This document shows, piece after piece, positions 2,610 through 32,000 of a DNA stretch of 32,000 bases (position 1 is the stretch's first letter; the number at the start of each line of letters is the position of its first letter). A program made the position numbers and the translations under genes. The stretch spans positions 480,001 through 512,000 of the forward strand of contig AP027133.1 of the NCBI GenBank assembly GCA_027925325.1, written 5' to 3'. The stretch is from Candidatus Saccharimonadota bacterium (lineage in GTDB: Bacteria > Bacillota_I > Bacilli_A > Mycoplasmatales > Hepatoplasmataceae). The notes under the pieces were generated by a model. That model was not told the origin of the DNA. It ran no database searches and worked only from the letters and a program-made list of their open reading frames with translations.

Positions 2610-4271
2610 TTACTCCATAAATAATAATAAATGATAAATTTCTTGTCCACCATATGATAATTCAAATTCTACGTCTTTAAATTTTTTAAAAATTGTTTTT
2701 TCCATTATTTTTAATTCTTGGTTTGAAATTTCATCATTGTAAAAAATTGTTACAACCTCTATATTCTCATCAATTAAATCTTTCAAAACTTTTTCAAGAA
2801 CTTTAAATAAATCATTTTCTGCATAAAAGATTTTTTTGCCGTTAACAGCGATAAATTCATCTTTTTTTACATCTATTTTATTTCTCTTGGTATCGCGAAT
2901 CGCTTTCGTAATTGATATTTCTTTTAAAGCATGAATTTTTGCTGTTAATGAGGCTTGATGTTTATTAAAATCTACCATATTATCTTTGTTAATATTATAA
3001 AGAGCAAAAATTCCTTGTTGGATTGTTTTTGTTGGTAATACATAAATATTTTTATCTTCAATATTGTTTCTTACGGCATCAGTTGTAAGAATAATATTTG
3101 AATTATTTGGTAAAAGTAAGATATTACGATAATTTAAATTATTAATTTGACTTATAAAATCTTGTACTGAGGGATTGTATGATTGCCCTCCACTTATTAC
3201 TGCATCAACACCAAGATCAGAAAATTCTTTATCTAAACCAATTCCATCGGATACAGCAATAATTGCTAATTGATCATTTATTAAAAGATCATCCTTTTTT
3301 GTTTGATATTTTACTTTTCCTGTTAAGCTAACAATATGTCCGGCTTCTTCGGCTTGTAAGGCCATATTATCAGCTTTAATTTTTGTAAATTCACCATATT
3401 TTTGCGCAATATTAAATACTTCTCCCGGTTCCTTTACATGCACATGAACTTTTAAAATATCCTCTTCTTGGATCATAACCAAAGAATCACCAAATTTTTT
3501 TAATTGTGTTTTTAATTTACTATAAGAAAATTTAGCTGGATTTTTTAAAGTTAAAATAAATTCCGTACAATAACCGATATTTTTATTTGGATTAGCCTTA
3601 AATGTTACTTGATTCACCCTCTGTTTCGCAACATGTGATGTTGGTCCTTTCGCCTTAATTGTAAGTGGTTTTCCCTCTGCCGCCCTTAAGACACCTTCTA
3701 AAAACATTAATACACCAAAAGCACCTGAATCAACAACACCTGATTCTTTTAAAACCTTAAGTTGATTTGGTGTATTATCAACAGCTTTTTTGGCTATATC
3801 TCTTAAACTACGGATAGCTGAAACAAAATCAGTTTGTTCTTTTTTAAATTCTTGTTCCATTGCCGTTGCAATCGAAAGAATTGTTCCCTCTACCGGTTTG
3901 GAAACCGCTTTATAACCGTAATCTCTAATTGATTTTAAAATTATTTTTAAATCCTTGATTGAAGTTGAAAATCGTCCGACCTTTTTTACACCTTCAGCCA
4001 ATCCTTTAATTAATTGTGAACTAATAACACCAGAATTTCCTCTAGCCCCAAGTAAAGCTCCTCTTGCAAAATCATTAAGTATTTCAATATCACTCTCAGA
4101 ATTCTCATTAATATTATTTCATGCATTTACAAGTGTCCCAGTCATATTAGAACCAGTGTCTCCATCTGGAACAGGAAAAACGTTCAAATTATTTATTTTT
4201 TCTTCATTTTGTTGAATATTTGCAATTCCTGATTCAAGAATACTTAGAACTGTTTCTTTATGTGATTTCAT
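2610..4271 (-). CDS. fakA: DAK2-domain protein of the YloV/FakA family (fatty acid kinase ATP-binding subunit-like)
   Basis: Track ORF 2610-4001 extends upstream in frame through a TGA to ATG 4271-4269, which is preceded by an in-frame TAA. The N-terminus has DAK2 motifs (PDGDTGSNM, LLGARGNSGVI). The protein is 553 aa and sits upstream of plsX and divergent from rpmB, as yloV does in Bacillus. Confidence 0.75.
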
Positions 4272-13060: not shown

Positions 13061-13146
13061 GGAGGGGTAGCGAAGTCTGGCTAAACGCGGGTGACTGTAG
13101 ATCATTTCCCTTTGGGTTCGGGGGTTCGAATCCCTCCCCCTCCACC
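13061..13146 (+). tRNA. tRNA-Tyr (GTA), class II with a long variable arm, CCA encoded
   Basis: The acceptor stem is GGAGGGG/CCCCTCC, the anticodon loop is CTGTAGA and the T-arm is GGGGGTTCGAATCCCTC. It folds by hand into a cloverleaf. Confidence 0.9.
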
Positions 13147-13151
13147 ATAAA

Positions 13152-13226
13152 TGGTCTGTAGCCAAGCGGTAAGGCACATGGTTTTGGTCCATGTATGCGT
13201 AGGTTCGAATCCTGCCAGACCAGCCA
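13152..13226 (+). tRNA. tRNA-Gln (TTG), CCA encoded
   Basis: The acceptor stem is TGGTCTG/CAGACCA, the anticodon stem-loop is CATGG-TTTTGGT-CCATG and the T-loop is GGTTCGAATCC. Confidence 0.9.
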
Positions 13227-13230
13227 TTAT

Positions 13231-13306
13231 GGCCTCATAGCTCAGTCGGTAGAGCAACTGACTCTTAATCAGTGGGTCGAAGGTTCAAGTCCTTCTGGGG
13301 TCACCA
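13231..13306 (+). tRNA. tRNA-Lys (CTT), CCA encoded
   Basis: The anticodon stem-loop is ACTGA-CTCTTAA-TCAGT, the D-arm is AGCTCAGTCGGTAGAGC and the T-arm is GAAGGTTCAAGTCCTTC. Confidence 0.9.
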
Positions 13307-13344
13307 TCAGTTTTTAGCAATTAATTAAATTGTCTTTGTTAATT

Positions 13345-13420
<76 letters not shown>

Positions 13421-13424
13421 TATA

Positions 13425-13513
13425 GCCCAGGTGGTGGAATTTGGTAGACACGAGGGACTTAAGCTCCCTTGGTCATTTTGACTGTGCGGGTTCAAGTCCC
13501 GCTCTGGGCACCA
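13425..13513 (+). tRNA. tRNA-Leu (TAA), class II, CCA encoded
   Basis: The acceptor stem is GCCCAGG/CTGGGC, the anticodon stem-loop is AGGGA-CTTAAGC-TCCCT, a long variable arm is present and the T-arm is GCGGGTTCAAGTCCCGC. Confidence 0.9.
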
Positions 13514-16140: not shown

Positions 16141-16938
16141 TTAATTAAAATTAATATTATAAATCTCTAAAATATTATTAATTTCTCTCTTTAAATTATT
16201 CTTAATTATTTCATTGTCAGAAATATTACTGAAAATACTTTTTAAATCAGAAAATGATATATTTGAAAATTTTTTTCAAAAATTTTCTCCACGAAATAAA
16301 TTTTTATTTTCTTTTAAATAATCATCACTCCATCTTTTTTTATCATTAAAAAAATATAAAATAGGATTTATATCTTTATAACTTATTTTATTTTTCTCAA
16401 AATATCTTCTCAAAGAAAATGTAGTTTCAAATAATTTCTTATAAATATTTTCATGTTTTCCAGTATCGTGATTATCTAAAAATTTTATTTCAAATAAATA
16501 ATAATTTTCATTATTGTCATATAACAAAAGATCAATATCTTTTCTTTTGATTTTTTTGTTACTTGTTAAATCTTTATATTTTACATTTTTAAAAAAATTT
16601 AAATTAAAATCTCTTTTATTCTTCATATAATCTTCAATCGCATCATTTTCTTCTTTAGAAATAAGGCTGTCAATTTTTTTACCTGATAAATTTGATAAAT
16701 TATATTTTTGATCATTTTTCAAGATATCTCTAATTAATTTCTCAATATAGTTTCCAAAACTAATATTTAAAGATTGTAGATAGCTTATTAAATTTCTATA
16801 TTCAATCGGTAGAAAATGAATTTTGGTTTTGTTTTCTTTAGTTTTTTTATCAAATTCTTTTGCTTCAATTTTAGATTTTATTAATTTATTTGTATTATCT
16901 AAAATTATTCTTTCTAATTCAGTTTTATTTAAATTCAC
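16141..16938 (-). CDS. Putative type II restriction endonuclease, PD-(D/E)xK fold (265 aa)
   Basis: GTG 16938-16936 is the first start codon after an in-frame stop, with AAAGGAA 10 nt upstream. The ORF reads through TGA at 16276-16278 to TAA 16143-16141. The candidate catalytic motif is KDIDLLLYDNNENYYLFEIKFLD (D ... E-x-K). It lies immediately downstream of the methyltransferase gene and overlaps it. Confidence 0.6.
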
Positions 16939-18031
16939 TTTGATTAATTCCTTTTCTTATATCATCTATTAAAATATAATTATCCTCTATTTTTATATAT
17001 CAATATCTTCATCCATTTAAATATCTACCATTTTCAAATAATTCTGTTGCTTTATGAATAGAATACTCATTTTTATTAATTTCTATTTTTCCTTCTAAAT
17101 TTAGAAGAGCTTTTTCTTTTCTTGAATTATATAAATATTTTGTTTTTAATTTATTTTCTTTTATTAAATTAATAATTTTTGGATATATAATCTTTTGATC
17201 AAATTTAGAATTAATATGATCTATTAATGAATAATCATCATCTTGAATTGATTTAACATTATGAATTCTTTCATTGGCATATTTTACATATTCAATATTA
17301 TTTTCAATCCCTATAAAATTTCGATGCAATTTTTTTGCAACTGCTCCTGTTGTTCCTGTACCAAAAAATGGATCTAAAATAATATCATTTCTTTTTGTAG
17401 TTGCTAAGATAATTCTTTCTAATAATTTTTCAGGTTTTTGAGTATTATGCAATTTATTCCCATCATGATCTTTTAATCTTTCTTTTCCTGAACATATTGG
17501 AAATTTTCAAACACTTCGCATTTGCTTATTATCATTTAAATTTTTCATCGTTTTATAATTAAATGTAAATTTAGAATTTTTTGATTTTACAAATCATATT
17601 AAATTCTCATTTGAATTTACAAATTTAGTTCCCCTAAAATTAGGAGTAGGATTTGTCTTTTCTCAAGTTATGTCATTAATTACTCAAAAATTCAAATTTT
17701 GAATAATATATCCTAATCTATAAATATTATGAAATGTTCCCATTACTCAAATTGAACCATTATCTTTTAAAATTCTTTTACATTGAGTTAATCATTTTTT
17801 TGTAAAATTATCATATTCTTTATAAGATCCAAATTTATCCCACTCATCATTTACACCTTTATATTTATTTCCATCGATTCTGTAAAGAATTCCAGCCCCT
17901 GTTTGCATAAAATAAGGAGGATCAGCAAAAATTAAATCAACAGATTTTGAAGGAATCTTTTTTAATTCTTTTAAACTATCTCCTAAAATTATTTTATTTT
18001 TTAATTTATTTATGTCCGTGTTCATTTTCAT
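16925..18031 (-). CDS. Site-specific DNA methyltransferase (N6-adenine), beta class, CcrM/M.HinfI family (368 aa), probable GANTC specificity
   Basis: Track ORFs 17792-18031 and 17009-17452 are in the same frame and join through several TGA codons. The frame continues past TGA 17009-17011 to TAA 16927-16925. Motif IV IFADPPY precedes motif I ILDPFFGTGTTG, with HNTQKPEKLLERII between them. The family-specific C-terminal domain is SIHKATELFENGRYLNGWRYWYI...IDDIR. Confidence 0.9.
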
Positions 18032-28997: not shown

Positions 28998-29620
28998 CCA
29001 AAATTTTTTAATTTATTTGTAATTTTTTTACGATAACGATAAATAGTTTTTTCAGGAATATTTAATTTCTCCGCAGCTTTCTTTACGCTTCCTTCTGTTT
29101 CTAATAATTTTGTTAAAATTTTGTTTTCCTTATCTGTGAAAATTTTGAAATCAATTGTCTTAATTACTCATGTCATAAAATCTTCATCATCATTGAAAAT
29201 TTCTTCTGTTAAAATTATTCCGTAGTTAAAATTATTATTATCAATCGGAATTGCATAATTTAATAAAATATGATTTTTTGTTGTAAATTTTTTTGCATAA
29301 TTTTTTAAATCATATTCAAGAAAAGTTTCAATATAGCTTGCAAACTTTTTTCGACCATTAAATTTATAATCTACTGTTCGTTTATAAAAACAATAGATTC
29401 CATATTGGTAATAATCATCAAATTTTAAAGGAGAATTATCAAATCTTAATGCTACCTTATTTGATATTTTTTTAATAAAAGATTCATATTTACTTAATAG
29501 TATTTTGAAATTTATATCATTTTTTTTGTCTTTATTTTTTTGAATTTTTTGAATTAGGTTCTTTTGTTCTTCATAATCTAATTGTTGATAATTTATTTGT
29601 TGATTTTCTTTAATTATCAC
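28985..29620 (-). CDS. Sigma-70 family RNA polymerase sigma factor, SigH-position (211 aa)
   Basis: Track ORF 29168-29620 starts at GTG and reads through TGA 29168-29170 to TAA 28987-28985. A region-2-like block is present (FDDYYQYGIYCFYKRTVDYKFNGRKKFASYIETFLEYDLKNYAKK), as is a region-4 HTH (LTKLLETEGSVKKAAEKLNIPEKTIYRYRKKI). It occupies the sigH slot of the Bacillus cysS...sigH-rpmG-secE-nusG arrangement. Confidence 0.7.
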
Positions 29621-30326
29621 TTGTTAAAGCGTAAAGAAAAATACCAACCGAAGTTGCTACATTTAAAGATTCAACTTTCGGATTGATATTAATTTTTGAT
29701 GTATAATCAGATGAATTAATTAATGATAAACGAATGCCTTTACTTTCATTGCCAAAAATTAAAACTAAATTTTGATTTAATTTTTTTAACTCTTGTGGTT
29801 GATATTTTCCTTTTAGAATTGTTGAGACAACTCAAAAATTATTATTTTTTAATTTCTTGATAACATTTGCAGCAGAAGATATCATAACAATATCGACATC
29901 TAATCACCCACCAGCCGATGCTTTAATCGCTGTATTTGTAATTTTTGCACTATTATCTTTTGTAATTAAAATCCCATCAACATTAAAAGCGGCAGCATTT
30001 CGTATAATTGCCCCTAAATTTTGTGGATCTTGTATTCGATCTAAAAATAGCAAAATTGATTTTTGCTTATTTTCAATTTTTTTAAGCAATTGATCTAATG
30101 TAAGTTTATCTGGTAGATCAATTTCAGCAATGATGTTTTGAAAATTATTTACATTTGGAAATTTTTTTCTTCAATAATGAAAATCAAATTCAAGCACATT
30201 TATTTTCGCATTTTTTAAGATTTGATAAAAAGAAAAATGTTTACTTTTATCTAAATAAACTTTCTTAATTAAATCTCTTCTTTTAGTAAAAATTTCCTTT
30301 ACGGAATTTATTCCATATATTTGCAT
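29610..30326 (-). CDS. SpoU/TrmH-family RNA 2'-O-methyltransferase (RlmB/YacO-like, 238 aa)
   Basis: ATG 30326-30324 lies upstream of the TTG-initiated track ORF 29904-30089. The frame continues through TGA codons to TAA 29612-29610. SpoU motifs are present (DRIQDPQNLGAIIRNAAAF, LIFGNESKGI, INPKVESLNVATSVGIFLY). Confidence 0.8.
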
Positions 30327-30330
30327 AACA

Positions 30331-31497
30331 CTATTTTTTCATTAAATATTTTAAATTAAATCCAAGAATCTCTAAATTAAAAATTAATTTTTGATATTCG
30401 ATTTCATCAAATTTTTTATTAATCTTTTTTAATTGCAACATCAAATACGAAATTGCATTTGGTGTATTTAAATTATTTTCCAAAATTTTAATGAAATCTT
30501 GATCTATTAAGGATTTTGCGCTTTTATTATTGAAAATTTTATTGATTTTTATCAAAAAATTAGATATTTTTGCTATCTGAATTTTTGCATTATTAATAAC
30601 ATTTTCATTAATATTAATTGGTTTCTGATAATAACTTAATAAAAAAAGCATTCTCAAAGTATTTGGAGAATAAGCTTTTAAAAAATCCTTTGCATAAATA
30701 ATATTATTTAAAGATTTCGACATCTTTTTATTATTAAAATTTATATGTCCGACATATAACCAACTTTTTGCCAATTGATTTTTATGGATTGCTTCATATT
30801 GCGCCATTTCATTAATATGATGTGGGAAATATAAGTCAATTCCTCCGCCATGAATATCAATTCCATTATTACCAAAATATTTTTCGATAAGATAAGAACA
30901 TTCAGTATGTCAACCCGGTCTGCCTTTACCTCAAGGTGAATCGAATTTTATACCTGCTGTTGTTGTTTTTCAAAGAGCAAAATCATTTTGATTATTCTTA
31001 GAAATAATTTTGCTTTGTTTATTTATTAATTCACCCATATCTATATTAAGTTTTGAATTATAATTTTCTCATTTATTTATTGAAAAATAAACACCTTCAT
31101 TAGTTTGATATGCATAATTTAAGTCAAGTAATTTTTTAATAAAATTTATCATTCCAGTTATGTTATCGGACACCTTTGGAAGATAGGTCGGTTTGATAAT
31201 ATTTAATTTTTTTAGAAGAAGTAGATAATTTATTAAATATTTTTCTGAAATTAATTTTTCAGTTTTATTTTGTTTTAAAGCTTGATCAATTATCTTATCA
31301 TCAATATCTGTAATATTATGTACGTAAATAACTTCTTGTTTGTTTACTTTTGCAAGACGATGCAAAACATCAAAAACAACCACTGCACGAAAATTACCAA
31401 TATGAGGATAATCATAAACGGTTGGTCCACAAAGATAAATATTAAGTTTCCCTTTAAATTCTTGTTTTTGTTTTGTATAAAAATCTATTAAAAACAT
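30331..31497 (-). CDS. cysS: Cysteine--tRNA ligase (388 aa)
   Basis: Track ORFs 30331-30807 and 31069-31497 are in the same frame and join through TGA codons. The HIGH motif (PHIGNF) and KMSKS are present, and the stop is TAG. No Shine-Dalgarno sequence is evident. A TATAAT (31512-31507, minus strand) lies only 9 nt before the ATG. Confidence 0.92.
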
Positions 31498-31522
31498 ATT
31501 GATAAAATTATAATAAATAATT

Positions 31523-31728
31523 TAAATAAAAGTAGATAGGATTTAAATCCTATCTATTTAATCATAAATGCACACTTAGGGATTTATGTATCAAAATATT
31601 TAATGAAACTTGTTGCTCACTTGATAATAAAAAAGAGCAACATTTATGCGAGATGCCAAGTATCTTAATTAAATAAGAAGTGCATAAATGCTGCTTTTTT
31701 TCTCTTATTTAATTTTGGATACAAGGCA
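31523..31728 (-). ncRNA. Candidate structured RNA, unit A (sRNA or cysS leader/attenuator); function unknown
   Basis: The minus strand has TTGAGA (31764-31759), an 18-nt spacer and TATAAT (31740-31735). A ~200-nt region with a 20-bp helix and alternative pairings follows. It ends in the hairpin AGATAGGAT-TTAA-ATCCTATCT (31555-31534) plus ACUUUUAUUU, 36 nt before the cysS ATG. Confidence 0.3.
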
Positions 31729-31778
31729 ATATATATTATATCCATTTAACTTTTTAAGTCTCAAAAAATTTATCTTTA

Positions 31779-31987
31779 ATAAAAAAGCAGATAGGCAAAA
31801 CCTATCTACTTCATCATTAAATGCACTTAGGGGATTAATATCTTTTAAATATTTAATGAAACTTAATGTCACTCTATTTATAAAAATAAAAAAGAGCAAC
31901 ATTTATGCGAGACGCCAAGTATCTTAATTAAATAAGAAGTGCATAAATGCTGCTTTTTTTCTCTTATTTAATTTTGGATACAAGGCA
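31779..31987 (-). ncRNA. Candidate structured RNA, unit B (paralog of unit A)
   Basis: The TATAAT is at 31999-31994 on the minus strand, with the -35 outside the window. It has the same 20-bp helix as unit A (31889-31908 / 31941-31960). It ends in the hairpin AGATAGG-UUUUG-CCUAUCU (31807-31789) plus GCUUUUUUAUU. Confidence 0.3.
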
Positions 31988-32000
31988 ATATATATTATAT

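What the first reader, a model, noticed from the sequence alone, without database searches (positions are those of the whole stretch)
31498..32000. Tandemly duplicated ~255-259-nt structured element directly upstream of cysS: candidate novel ncRNA or attenuator on the minus strand
Two head-to-tail units fill the region upstream of cysS. Their promoter-proximal halves are nearly identical: 31626-31741 matches 31885-32000, 116 nt with one mismatch. The terminator-proximal halves are diverged. Read on the minus strand, each unit looks like a self-contained transcription unit. (i) It begins with TTGAGA, an 18-nt spacer and TATAAT (31764-31759 / 31740-31735). The unit B TATAAT is at 31999-31994. 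(ii) A 20-bp helix (31630-31649 with 31682-31701; unit B 31889-31908 with 31941-31960) closes a 32-nt loop. (iii) A second hairpin re-uses the 3' arm of that helix, so the two structures are mutually exclusive. In unit A it is GUUGCUC/GAGCAAC (31612-31618 with 31635-31641). In unit B the partner differs at two positions (31868-31875 with 31893-31900). Those changes give U-G and G-U pairs in the minus-strand RNA but C.A and A.C mismatches in a plus-strand RNA. This is strand-specific conservation of structure. (iv) The complementary octamers CAUUUAUG and CAUAAAUG occur three times per unit, which allows further alternative pairings. (v) Each unit ends in an AGATAGG...CCTATCT hairpin followed by a U-run. 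Unit A ends 36 nt before the cysS ATG, so it could act as a regulated leader as well as, or instead of, an independent sRNA. I do not recognise it as any common RNA family. RNase P, tmRNA and SRP RNA do not fit its size and features, and it lacks a T-box.
Basis: partly seen in the sequence, partly recalled or inferred. Interest (0 to 1): 0.8.

Follow-up and report, generated by a model that had tools for sequence, protein, structure and literature searches.

The report
Conserved bistable RNA upstream of cysS
The two tandem repeats in front of the cysteinyl-tRNA synthetase gene of this isopod-gut mollicute (Candidatus Hepatoplasma) are copies of a previously undescribed structured RNA that can fold in two mutually exclusive ways and is kept in front of cysS across the genus, most likely as a transcription-termination switch for cysS and the genes behind it.

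Summary
Two head-to-tail units lie upstream of cysS, and their cores are 116 nt long with one mismatch. Promoter-like and terminator-like signals are found only on the minus (cysS-sense) strand.

The window comes from Candidatus Hepatoplasma. The same element sits upstream of cysS in six other Hepatoplasma-like genomes (CysRS identity down to about 50%). It is absent from two outgroups, from Rfam 15 and from the literature I could search.

The core is four segments, X–T5–Y–T3, forming two interleaved and therefore mutually exclusive helices:
- **X:Y** carries the invariant motif CUUGGC(GG) paired with (CC)GCCAAG.
- **T5:T3** is a 20-bp hairpin, usually followed by a U-run. Its sequence is unrelated between lineages but stays complementary.

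Both helices show compensatory changes, are close in energy, and contain G·U pairs that work only on the cysS-sense strand. A third copy of X (X3) lies in or beside the last terminator before cysS. It pairs with Y over up to 18 bp, with compensatory change between genomes.

Best reading: a new terminator/antiterminator switch, or an sRNA plus leader pair, controlling cysS–rlmB. The signal it senses is unknown. It is not a T-box, a Cys-codon leader peptide or a mobile repeat.

The parts
31994..31999 (-). Unit B promoter -10 box TATAAT. The -35 box lies beyond the window end.
   Evidence: In the collinear genome L002 the distal unit has TTGAGA-18-TATAAT.
31961..31986 (-). Unit B segment X (GCCUUGUAUCCAAAAUUAAAUAAGAG), the 5' strand of helix X:Y
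31941..31960 (-). Unit B segment T5, the 5' arm of the 20-bp terminator-like helix
31911..31939 (-). Unit B segment Y, containing the invariant CUUGGC at 31919-31914. It is the 3' strand of X:Y and sits in the loop of T5:T3.
31889..31908 (-). Unit B segment T3, the 3' arm of the 20-bp helix, ending in a U-run
31868..31900 (-). Unit B hairpin H2 (GUUGCUCU / AGAGUGAC). It re-uses part of T3.
31847..31864 (-). Unit B conserved unpaired block AAGUUUCAUUAAAUAUUU, identical in both units
   Evidence: (D4)
31784..31838 (-). Unit B X3-like segment plus terminator H4 (GAAGUAGAUAGG...CCUAUCUGCUUU followed by a U-run)
   Evidence: terminator 31812-31784. One search gives a weak model hit at 31775-31838.
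31735..31764 (-). Unit A promoter TTGAGA-18-TATAAT
   Evidence: 11 of 12 consensus matches
31702..31727 (-). Unit A segment X
31682..31701 (-). Unit A segment T5
   Evidence: (I8)
31652..31680 (-). Unit A segment Y, with CUUGGC at 31660-31655
31630..31649 (-). Unit A segment T3
   Evidence: (I8)
31612..31641 (-). Unit A hairpin H2 (GUUGCUC / GAGCAAC)
31594..31611 (-). Unit A conserved unpaired block AAGUUUCAUUAAAUAUUU
31553..31580 (-). Unit A X3-like segment (CCUAAGUGU...AUUAAAUAGA). It is the best downstream partner of Y and overlaps the 5' arm of H4.
   Evidence: dG -12.2. One search gives a weak model hit at 31525-31587.
31533..31556 (-). Unit A terminator H4 (UAGAUAGG...CCUAUCUA followed by a U-run), 36 nt before the cysS ATG
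31507..31512 (-). TATAAT box 9 nt upstream of the cysS ATG. It could be cysS's own promoter and give a leaderless mRNA.
   Evidence: The same arrangement is seen in L002 and L009.
30331..31497 (-). cysS (388 aa, genetic code 4), the gene the element is linked to
29610..30326 (-). rlmB (23S rRNA Gm2251 methyltransferase), directly downstream of cysS
   Evidence: TIGR00186, 194.7 bits against a cutoff of 160.15

Best explanation
Each unit encodes an RNA on the cysS-sense (window minus) strand whose core is a two-state switch.

**The two states.** Four consecutive segments, X, T5, Y and T3, form two interleaved helices.
- **State A:** X pairs with Y.
- **State T:** T5 pairs with T3 to give a 20-bp hairpin, usually followed by a U-run (an intrinsic-terminator shape). 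Y is then exposed in the loop, in most lineages as a small hairpin with the loop UUGGCG.

The linkers are 0-3 nt, so the two helices cannot coexist.

**The third partner.** A third copy of the X sequence (X3) lies in or next to the last terminator before cysS and pairs with Y.

**Proposed mechanism (inferred).**
- Y is handed from partner to partner.
- If X:Y forms while the RNA is being made, the T5:T3 terminator cannot form and the polymerase reads on.
- Y then pairs with X3 and interferes with the last terminator, so transcription enters cysS-rlmB.
- If Y is trapped in its local hairpins, possibly by a bound factor, T5:T3 forms and a short RNA of about 100 nt is released. That RNA still displays Y and could act on X3 in trans.

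**The window lineage.** Here the whole module (core plus X3-like segment plus terminator) has been duplicated in tandem.

**Shown:** the family, its strand, both competing helices, the Y:X3 complementarity, and the linkage to cysS.

**Inferred:** transcription, termination, the direction of regulation, and the signal.
For: - **Family and synteny:** units lie directly upstream of cysS in the window, in L002 (two tandem units), L005, L020, L006 (two units), L009 and L010. Upstream neighbours differ between genomes (DUF3800-like ORF, PTS EIIBC, other), while cysS-rlmB is constant.
- **T5:T3:** 20 pairs, 12 with changes on both sides, 89% of cells paired against 44-54% when the partners are slid, 0 of 500 shuffles as high. 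The result holds without the window lineage.
- **X:Y:** 19 pairs, 93.8% of cells paired against 33-50% slid, 4 pairs changed on both sides. A hand-registered table confirms the register.
- **Bistability:** in the window, state A is -22.2 and -21.3 kcal/mol and state T is -23.9 and -25.4 kcal/mol. The MFE picks X:Y for unit A and T5:T3 for unit B.
- **Y:X3:** 18 contiguous bp in L005 and in L020, with a compensatory CG-to-UA change between them. L009 has 15 bp that use lineage-specific bases. L006 and L010 have 8+6 bp. X3 lies next to or inside the last terminator.
- **Strand:** G.U against A.C at helix positions is 23:4, 9:0 and 14:2. Promoter and terminator calls are on the minus strand only.
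- **Independent membership test:** a covariance model built without any window-lineage sequence finds the two window units on the minus strand (27.4 and 24.2 bits; E 0.009 and 0.041 over 121,557 bases, both strands). It also finds the L002 and L004 units and nothing else in the window.
Against: - No transcript data were available, so the promoters, RNA ends and termination are all predictions.
- Promoter-like sites are not enriched over shuffles in this AT-rich DNA.
- T5:T3 lacks a good U-run in both L006 units, so it may not terminate everywhere.
- cysS has a perfect TATAAT 9-10 nt before its ATG in the window, L002 and L009. If that box is used, cysS is made as a leaderless mRNA and read-through control would matter less.
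- In the window lineage X pairs imperfectly (U.U mismatches). The X3-like partner is weak (-12 kcal/mol) and degenerate in L002A, L003 and L004, so the relay step is poorly supported in the window itself.
- X3 sits differently relative to the last terminator in different lineages: inside the loop in some, overlapping the base of the stem in others. The sign of the effect is therefore uncertain.
- The sample is small (11 units from 7 genomes) and the shuffle controls ignore relatedness.
- The structures were derived by folding the sense strand, which favours G.U counts.
Confidence: 0.6

Rival explanations
1. The units are independent small-RNA genes rather than a cis leader. Each is transcribed from its own promoter and ends at T5:T3 or at the AGAUAGG terminator. 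The released RNA displays Y in a loop and pairs in trans with X3 in the short leader of cysS, in the manner of antisense-RNA-controlled attenuation. In L005 and L020 the 18-bp Y:X3 duplex is followed directly by a U6 run, so the sRNA could even supply one strand of a two-molecule terminator.
For: - In L005 and L020, unit 1 and the X3-containing leader each have their own TATAAT box. They are separated by another terminator-bounded region of about 300 nt.
- Y:X3 is more stable and more contiguous than X:Y in L005, L020 and L009.
- Each window unit has its own promoter and strong terminator, and cysS has its own TATAAT.
Against: - L006, L009 and L010 read equally well as one continuous leader.
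- No transcript ends are known.
- In the window lineage no convincing X3 exists in front of cysS.
- This rival shares most of its anatomy with the best explanation and differs only in cis versus trans action.
Confidence: 0.25
2. It is a ribosome-mediated attenuator. A short leader peptide with cysteine codons senses charged tRNA-Cys, as in the uORF motif found upstream of cysS in Rhodobacterales.
For: - L002 (both units) and L004 carry an AUG-started uORF, M(H/P)SYLIKILG(I/V)SHKCCSF..., with tandem Cys codons UGU-UGC inside the T3 arm.
- L005 has an 18-codon uORF ending ...NNWCCP.
- A cysS uORF attenuator is precedented (PMC8632094).
Against: - In the window an extra C (GCACUUC instead of GCAUUC) cuts the uORF to 6 codons, in both units.
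- L009, L010 and L020 have no Cys-containing uORF.
- The invariant CUUGGC is read in different frames in different lineages.
- The L005 uORF starts inside the presumed -10 box.
- No Shine-Dalgarno sequence is evident.
- The Cys codons lie in the 3' arm of the terminator, where a stalled ribosome could not act before the polymerase has passed the U-run (inference).
Confidence: 0.05
3. It is a highly diverged T-box leader, or otherwise a sensor of uncharged tRNA. The UGG of the invariant CUUGGC would bind the 3' CCA end of tRNA, as the T-box bulge, RNase P RNA and the ribosomal P-loop do.
For: - cysS is a classical T-box-regulated gene in Firmicutes (established knowledge).
- Y contains UGGC and its partner X contains GCCA.
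- In state T the motif is displayed in a hairpin loop that is supported by covariation (helix 3: 96% paired, 2 pairs changed on both sides).
- A tRNA-Cys gene lies about 0.85 kb upstream in L002.
Against: - The Rfam T-box model gives no hit at E<=10 in the window, L005 or L006.
- There is no Stem I and no specifier loop. UGC or UGU is not at a conserved position.
- The terminator and antiterminator are interleaved, not sequential as in T-boxes.
- The tRNA-Cys of H. crinochetorum Ps has discriminator U73, which would mismatch UGGC.
- Complementarity of Y to tRNA-Cys is limited to a 6-mer in the D-arm.
Confidence: 0.05
4. It is not an RNA at all. It would be a DNA-level repeat such as a MITE-like mobile element with terminal inverted repeats, a recent neutral duplication, or a protein operator.
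For: - X and Y form an inverted repeat, CACCGCCAAG...CTTGGCGGTG, at the DNA level.
- The two window cores are nearly identical, as after a recent duplication or gene conversion.
- The plus strand folds as stably as the minus strand.
Against: - Only two copies, in tandem, exist in a complete 614-kb genome, and there are no other copies in about 120 kb of held sequence.
- The position upstream of cysS is kept across genomes whose CysRS is only about 50% identical.
- The internal helix is replaced by unrelated but still complementary sequence.
- G.U pairs strongly outnumber A.C.
- Inverted repeats about 60 bp apart do not fit a dimeric operator.
Confidence: 0.03

Closest known systems
T-box leader RNA (Rfam RF00230), the usual cysS/cysE regulator in Firmicutes
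   Same: - It lies upstream of an aminoacyl-tRNA synthetase gene.
- It works through competing terminator and antiterminator structures.
- It has a conserved UGG-containing motif that could in principle pair with a CCA sequence.
- Tandem copies of T-box leaders are known.
   Different: - It has no Stem I, specifier loop or T-box sequence.
- It gives no covariance-model match.
- The competing helices are interleaved (X-T5-Y-T3) rather than sharing one strand in series.
- The UGGC would mismatch the U73 discriminator of tRNA-Cys.
Antisense-RNA-mediated transcription attenuation (pT181 RNAI/repC, pIP501 RNAIII, pAMbeta1); named from my own knowledge
   Same: - A short RNA displays a loop sequence that pairs with a complementary stretch in the leader of the regulated gene, next to a terminator.
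- The leader's alternative pairings decide termination.
   Different: - Here the regulator is encoded in the same orientation and upstream of its target, not antisense to it.
- It carries its own internal competitor (X) and is itself bistable.
- It is chromosomal and controls a housekeeping operon.
Riboswitch-terminated RNAs acting in trans (Listeria SreA/SreB; EutX/Rli55); named from my own knowledge
   Same: A terminated leader-type RNA could double as a trans-acting sRNA, with a terminator decision setting which form is made.
   Different: No known aptamer is present and no ligand has been identified.
uORFC-8-2 ribosome-mediated attenuator upstream of cysS in Rhodobacterales (PMC8632094)
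   Same: It is linked to the same gene, ends in an intrinsic terminator, and some strains (L002, L004) carry a uORF with tandem Cys codons.
   Different: The uORF is not conserved in the family and is frameshifted in the window. The conservation is in RNA pairing, not in a reading frame.
Autoregulatory rRNA mimics in ribosomal-protein leaders (L1, L10, L20, S15 and others); named from my own knowledge
   Same: The hairpin NAC-UUGGCG-GUN in state T resembles 23S rRNA helix 80 (GAC-UGGGGCG-GUC). Helix 80 is the substrate of RlmB, whose gene directly follows cysS (PMC4014445).
   Different: - The resemblance is a 12-13-nt hairpin with one substitution and one deletion, which could be chance.
- No autoregulation of RlmB is reported.
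- The hairpin is weak in the window lineage.
- Binding was not tested.

Membership tests
T-box leader (RF00230) | Match to the family covariance model (Stem I, T-box sequence, antiterminator) | tested here: not met
   No T-box hit at E<=10 in window 31300-32000, L005 4400-5030 or L006 4400-5030. No hit at gathering score in the window, L002, L009, L010 or L020.
T-box leader (RF00230) | Specifier codon for the cognate amino acid (UGC/UGU) at a fixed position in a Stem I internal loop | tested here: not met
   There is no Stem I: X starts at or near the predicted 5' end. UGC/UGU occurs at non-homologous positions or not at all (L009, L010).
T-box leader (RF00230) | UGGN bulge whose N matches the tRNA discriminator base | tested here: not met
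   The motif is UGGC in all units, whereas tRNA-Cys of H. crinochetorum Ps has U73.
Ribosome-mediated attenuator with a Cys leader peptide (uORFC-8-2 type) | Conserved uORF with a start codon and in-frame regulatory Cys codons | tested here: not met
   Present in L002 and L004 only. It is frameshifted in the window and absent from L009, L010 and L020. The conserved motif is read in different frames.
Any Rfam 15 family | Score at or above the gathering threshold | tested here: not met
   Only tRNAs reach threshold in the window and loci. The best sub-threshold hits are hairpin look-alikes, e.g. a plastid psbA 3'UTR family at 24 bits against a gathering score of 55.8.
Intrinsic-terminator-based attenuator (general kind) | Terminator hairpin with a U-run, plus an alternative pairing that excludes it, both conserved | tested here: met
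   T5:T3 is followed by a U-run in the window, L002, L005, L020, L009 and L010, but the U-run is weak in L006. X:Y interleaves with it. Both helices show covariation. Function was not tested.
Intrinsic-terminator-based attenuator (general kind) | Transcription starts upstream and reads into the regulated gene in a regulated way | not testable with these tools
   No transcriptome data were available. Only consensus promoter and terminator scans were run.
MITE-like mobile repeat | Many dispersed copies with target-site duplications | tested here: not met
   The exact core pattern occurs twice, in tandem, in the 614-kb H. crinochetorum Ps contig. The covariance model finds no further copy in about 120 kb. 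The position is syntenic across the genus.
New family defined here (X-T5-Y-T3 unit of Hepatoplasma) | Window units score with a model built only from other lineages, on the cysS-sense strand and upstream of cysS | tested here: met
   Window 31881-31985 scores 27.4 bits (E 0.009) and 31622-31726 scores 24.2 bits (E 0.041), both on the minus strand. These are the top hits in the window. The E-values are modest and the calibration is rough.

The most novel reading that the evidence does not exclude
The element is a new class of regulatory RNA for the cysS-rlmB operon. Its invariant hairpin loop (UUGGCG closed by AC/GU) mimics the 23S rRNA P-loop (helix 80). The effector that flips the switch would then be one of two things:

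- **RlmB**, the Gm2251 methyltransferase encoded directly downstream. This would be the first rRNA-modification enzyme found to autoregulate through an rRNA mimic.
- **The CCA end of uncharged tRNA.** This would make it a T-box-independent tRNA sensor built on P-loop-like recognition.

In the H. vulgare lineage the released RNA would also supply in trans one strand of an 18-bp duplex followed by a U-run, forming a natural two-molecule terminator.
Probability: 0.1. Interest if true: 0.85.

Novelty: new variant of a known kind. Interest (0 to 1): 0.6.

Why it matters
**Regulation in a reduced genome.** Mollicutes have lost most transcription factors, and how they regulate core genes is poorly understood. 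This appears to be a genus-specific, RNA-only device placed in front of cysS–rlmB. All the genes that follow, through the ribosomal-protein genes to rpoBC, lie on the same strand and may be transcribed with them. Firmicute relatives use a T-box at the equivalent position.

**Unusual design.** Two interleaved helices are both under selection, and one strand (Y) has three alternative partners. This arrangement differs from classical attenuators and riboswitch expression platforms.

**Testable questions.** If it works as proposed, it offers a compact natural example of a strand-relay switch and raises a concrete question about what it senses: RlmB, tRNA, temperature or nothing.

**Practical points.**
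- The tandem near-identical cores break short-read assemblies exactly upstream of cysS.
- The region is left unannotated in all the genomes examined.

Tried and rejected
- **Rfam:** searched at gathering score and at E<=10 on the window and six loci. Only tRNAs were found.
- **Fetching the source contig:** The exact L33 and P0001 look-ups were not on record. The collinear H. crinochetorum Ps contig was used instead.
- **Metagenome scan:** the pattern CCGCCAAG..TTATGTT..CTTGGCGG gave nine hits, all chance matches in unrelated contigs of 42-68% GC. The Prevotellaceae hit of the genome scan (L001) is likewise chance.
- **Leader-peptide hypothesis:** rejected as a family-wide mechanism.
- **tRNA-Cys pairing:** only a 6-mer (GCCAAG in the D-arm) matches Y, and the acceptor-end pairing has a mismatch at U73.
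- **A pseudoknot in which both helices coexist:** rejected on geometry, because the linkers are 0-3 nt for helices of about 18-20 bp (inference).
- **ANTAR and PRD/RAT-type antiterminator targets:** considered from memory and rejected because the loop and sequence patterns do not fit.
not recovered in the consensus fold of six units.
- **X:Y counts on the first MAFFT alignment (A1):** X of the window lineage was mis-registered, which blurred the counts. They were redone on A2 and by hand.
- **Comparison with M. capricolum MCS RNAs:** not possible, because no sequence is in the accessible literature.
Full report
**1. What is in the window**

The window has 26% G+C and reads TGA as tryptophan. 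On the minus strand it carries the gene order rpoC-rpoB-rplL-rplJ-rplA-rplK-nusG-secE-rpmG-(sigma-like)-rlmB-cysS. CysRS (30331-31497, 388 aa) is identical to the protein of a 'Candidatus Hepatoplasma scabrum' genome.

Upstream of cysS the repeat is as described. 31626-31741 matches 31885-32000 over 116 nt with one mismatch, and the remaining halves align only with indels. The consensus scans find one strong promoter-like site, TTGAGA-18-TATAAT at 31764-31735 (a second, weaker 9/12 site overlaps it), and two terminator-like hairpins at 31812-31784 and 31556-31533. All are on the minus strand. The terminators are far above the shuffle expectation; the promoters are not. The 'three octamers per unit' claim holds for unit A only.

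**2. It is not a known RNA**

Rfam 15 gives only five tRNAs in the window. In the region itself it gives nothing better than hairpin look-alikes far below threshold, and no T-box. The same is true of the homologous regions of six other genomes. The Hepatoplasmataceae genome paper does not mention riboswitches, T-boxes or cysS. Two cysS regulators are known: the T-box, and a Cys-codon uORF attenuator in Rhodobacterales.

**3. It is a conserved, cysS-linked family, not a scattered repeat**

The exact core of the helix occurs in only one other Hepatoplasma genome of the 185,579-species collection, H. crinochetorum Ps. There it is again two tandem copies directly upstream of cysS. A second hit, in a Prevotellaceae MAG (L001), shows no similarity to the window and is taken as chance. 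The Ps contig is collinear with the window at about 86% identity. Beyond the second unit it carries a minus-strand DUF3800-like ORF, tRNA-Cys and tuf, so there are exactly two units and no plus-strand gene family.

Three short-read contigs of closer relatives end 154-220 nt upstream of cysS, inside the repeated core. That is the expected result when two near-identical copies break an assembly graph.

More distant genomes have unannotated gaps of 240-570 nt upstream of cysS that hold one or two units of the same architecture. These are H. vulgare (L005), its relative L020, and L006, L009 and L010, with CysRS about 50-54% identical. Tyloplasma (L008) and L021 have no gap and no element. The upstream neighbour varies between genomes, but cysS-rlmB does not.

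**4. Anatomy of the core**

Read in the cysS direction, each unit is X - T5 - Y - T3.

- **X and Y.** X contains (CC)GCCAAG and Y contains CUUGGC(GG). CUUGGC is invariant in all 11 units.
- **X:Y.** X pairs with Y through a proximal helix on this motif and a distal helix that is lineage-specific: GAACAUAAG/CUUAUGUUC, UAACAAUA/UAUUGUUA, and in the window AAUUAAAUAAGAG/CUUCUUAUUUAAUU.
- **T5:T3.** T5 pairs with T3 in an 18-21-bp helix whose sequence is unrelated between lineages.
- **Mutual exclusion.** The four segments alternate and the linkers are 0-3 nt, so the two helices cannot coexist (inference from geometry). In the window lineage they also overlap in sequence.

Pair counts:

| Structure | Alignment | Pairs | Pairs changed on both sides | Cells paired | Slid controls | Shuffles as high |
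|---|---|---|---|---|---|---|
| T5:T3 helix alone | A1 (9 units incl. window) | 20 | 12 | 89% | 44-54% (all 29 state-T pairs; 81.1% observed) | 0/500 (all 29 state-T pairs) |
| State T | A2 (6 non-window units) | 29 | 11 | 82.6% | 49-63% | 0/500 |
| X:Y | A2 (6 non-window units) | 19 | 4 | 93.8% | 33-50% | 0/500 (covariation score) |

The two states are close in energy. In the window they are -22.2 against -23.9 kcal/mol for unit A and -21.3 against -25.4 kcal/mol for unit B, and the MFE chooses different states for the two units.

In state T, Y sits in the loop. Outside the window lineage it forms a small hairpin NAC-UUGGCG-GUN that is itself supported: 96% paired, with two pairs changed on both sides.

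**5. Strand**

At helix positions, G.U pairs outnumber A.C mismatches by 23:4 (state T), 9:0 (X:Y) and 14:2 (H2 and H4 of the window lineage). An A.C mismatch would be a G.U pair on the other strand. The caveat is that the structures came from folding the sense strand.

**6. A third partner next to cysS**

In every non-window genome a third copy of X (X3) lies between the last unit and cysS.

- **L005 and L020.** X3 is 18/18 complementary to Y. Between the two genomes Y has changed G to A and X3 has changed C to U at the paired position.
- **L009.** 15 contiguous pairs use the lineage-specific GCGA/UCGC.
- **L006 and L010.** 8+6 pairs.

X3 is either inside the large loop of the last terminator hairpin (L005, L020, L009) or immediately 5' of a compact terminator, overlapping its base by about 3 nt (L006, L010).

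In the window the best downstream partner of Y is CCUAAGUGU...AUUAAAUAGA (31580-31553). It overlaps the 5' arm of the AGAUAGG terminator, but the duplex is weak (-12 kcal/mol) and the segment is degenerate in L002A, L003 and L004. The covariance model gives weak hits on exactly these 3' halves (31525-31587 and 31775-31838). I therefore read each window unit as core plus X3-like/terminator module, with the whole module duplicated in tandem in this lineage.

**7. Membership of the window units**

A covariance model built only from the six non-window units ranks the L002, window and L004 units highest among non-training sequences, apart from one antisense hit on the training L010 unit (29.0 bits). 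All are on the cysS-sense strand.

| Source | Coordinates | Bits |
|---|---|---|
| window | 31881-31985 | 27.4 |
| window | 31622-31726 | 24.2 |
| L002 | 2932-3045 | 30.7 |
| L002 | 3195-3308 | 24.4 |
| L004 | 19-104 | 23.6 |

It finds nothing else in the 32-kb window. The E-values (0.002-0.055) are modest on their own, but with synteny they are convincing.

**8. The window-lineage 3' half**

Hairpin H2 pairs the T3 arm with a downstream GAGCAAC-type segment. It is kept in six units and changes only on one side, giving G.U wobbles. Terminator H4 is nearly invariant. An 18-nt unpaired block, AAGUUUCAUUAAAUAUUU, is identical in both window units. H3 is not supported.

**9. How it most likely works**

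*Shown:* a conserved, strand-specific RNA architecture with two mutually exclusive helices, one of which has terminator shape, and a third pairing partner beside the last terminator before cysS.

*Inferred:* a strand-relay attenuator.

- X:Y forms first during transcription and blocks the T5:T3 terminator.
- Y then moves to X3 and weakens the last terminator, so cysS-rlmB is transcribed.
- If Y is held in its local hairpins, T5:T3 forms and a short RNA is released.

A trans-acting version (sRNA plus leader) fits the H. vulgare lineage at least as well. There each piece has its own TATAAT box, and the 18-bp Y:X3 duplex is followed by U6.

Weak points:
- No expression data are available.
- T5:T3 lacks a U-run in L006.
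- A perfect TATAAT lies 9-10 nt before the cysS ATG in the window, L002 and L009, which suggests a leaderless cysS mRNA.
- The placement of X3 varies between lineages.
- Pairing is degraded in the window lineage.

**10. What it senses is unknown**

- **T-box.** There is no Stem I, specifier or T-box sequence.
- **Leader peptide.** A uORF with tandem Cys codons exists in L002 and L004. It is frameshifted in the window and absent elsewhere, and CUUGGC is read in different frames.
- **Constraint on Y.** Y stays invariant while X drifts in the window lineage (GCCUUG and GCCUAG give U.U mismatches). Something other than X therefore constrains Y.
- **A lead only.** The P3 hairpin resembles 23S rRNA helix 80, the P-loop (GAC-UGGGGCG-GUC in E. 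coli). The P-loop binds the CCA end of tRNA and is the substrate of RlmB. The gene after cysS is RlmB, one of the few rRNA-modification enzymes present in all Mollicutes (PMC4014445). No RlmB autoregulation is reported. The similarity is short and could be chance.

**11. Verdict**

This is an undescribed RNA family of Hepatoplasma. It belongs to a known general kind (terminator-based RNA switch, or sRNA plus leader pair) but has an unusual interleaved, three-partner design and an unknown input. Its taxonomic range is narrow and its host is uncultured, which limits its immediate impact.

Noticed in passing
L005 4763-4842 and L020 about 2250-2330: An approximately 80-nt block is almost identical between H. 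vulgare and its relative. It lies inside a separate promoter- and terminator-bounded region between unit 1 and the cysS leader. It contains a 17-codon ORF, MLVLFVFECVFNYIYYF, that is identical in both genomes. It could be a small hydrophobic peptide or another sRNA.
   Followed up: no
L002 4167-4241 (minus strand): In H. crinochetorum Ps a tRNA-Cys gene lies about 0.85 kb upstream of the units. The order is tuf, tRNA-Cys, DUF3800-like ORF, unit B, unit A, cysS. The region beyond window position 32000 probably looks the same.
   Followed up: partly
window 31654 and 31913; L002 units: The single difference between the two unit cores is the base directly after CUUGGC (A or G). In the window the cysS-proximal unit has A and the distal unit has G. 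In H. crinochetorum Ps it is the reverse. All other lineages have G.
   Followed up: partly
L003 1-154, L004 1-220, L007 1-156: Three short-read (Logan) contigs of related strains end inside the repeated core just upstream of cysS. L003 and L007 begin right at or after the one polymorphic base. This is consistent with the tandem near-identical copies breaking the assembly.
   Followed up: yes
L002 (both units) and L004; window 31685-31665 and 31944-31924: An AUG-started uORF with tandem Cys codons (…SHKCCSF…) runs through Y and T3 in two related strains. An extra C truncates it to MHFLFN in both window units.
   Followed up: yes
window 30331-31497: CysRS of the window lineage is 388-389 aa, against 400-426 aa in other Hepatoplasma-like genomes and about 445 aa in Spiroplasma. 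Its precomputed Pfam hits lack the PF09190 domain listed for many of the ~445-aa relatives.
   Followed up: no
window 16141-18031 (minus strand): An ORF with a DNA-methyltransferase-like DPPY motif and a neighbouring ORF lie between the tRNA cluster (13061-13513) and rpoC. They may form a restriction-modification module.
   Followed up: no
window 31507-31512; L002 and L009 equivalents: A perfect TATAAT lies 9-10 nt upstream of the cysS ATG with no Shine-Dalgarno sequence. This suggests a leaderless cysS mRNA.
   Followed up: partly
L010 2640-2680: A degenerate extra unit (…UUUAUGUUUUGAAUUUGGUGGUU…) lies upstream of the intact one. This suggests that two units plus X3 may be the ancestral state, with decay in some lineages.
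   Followed up: no
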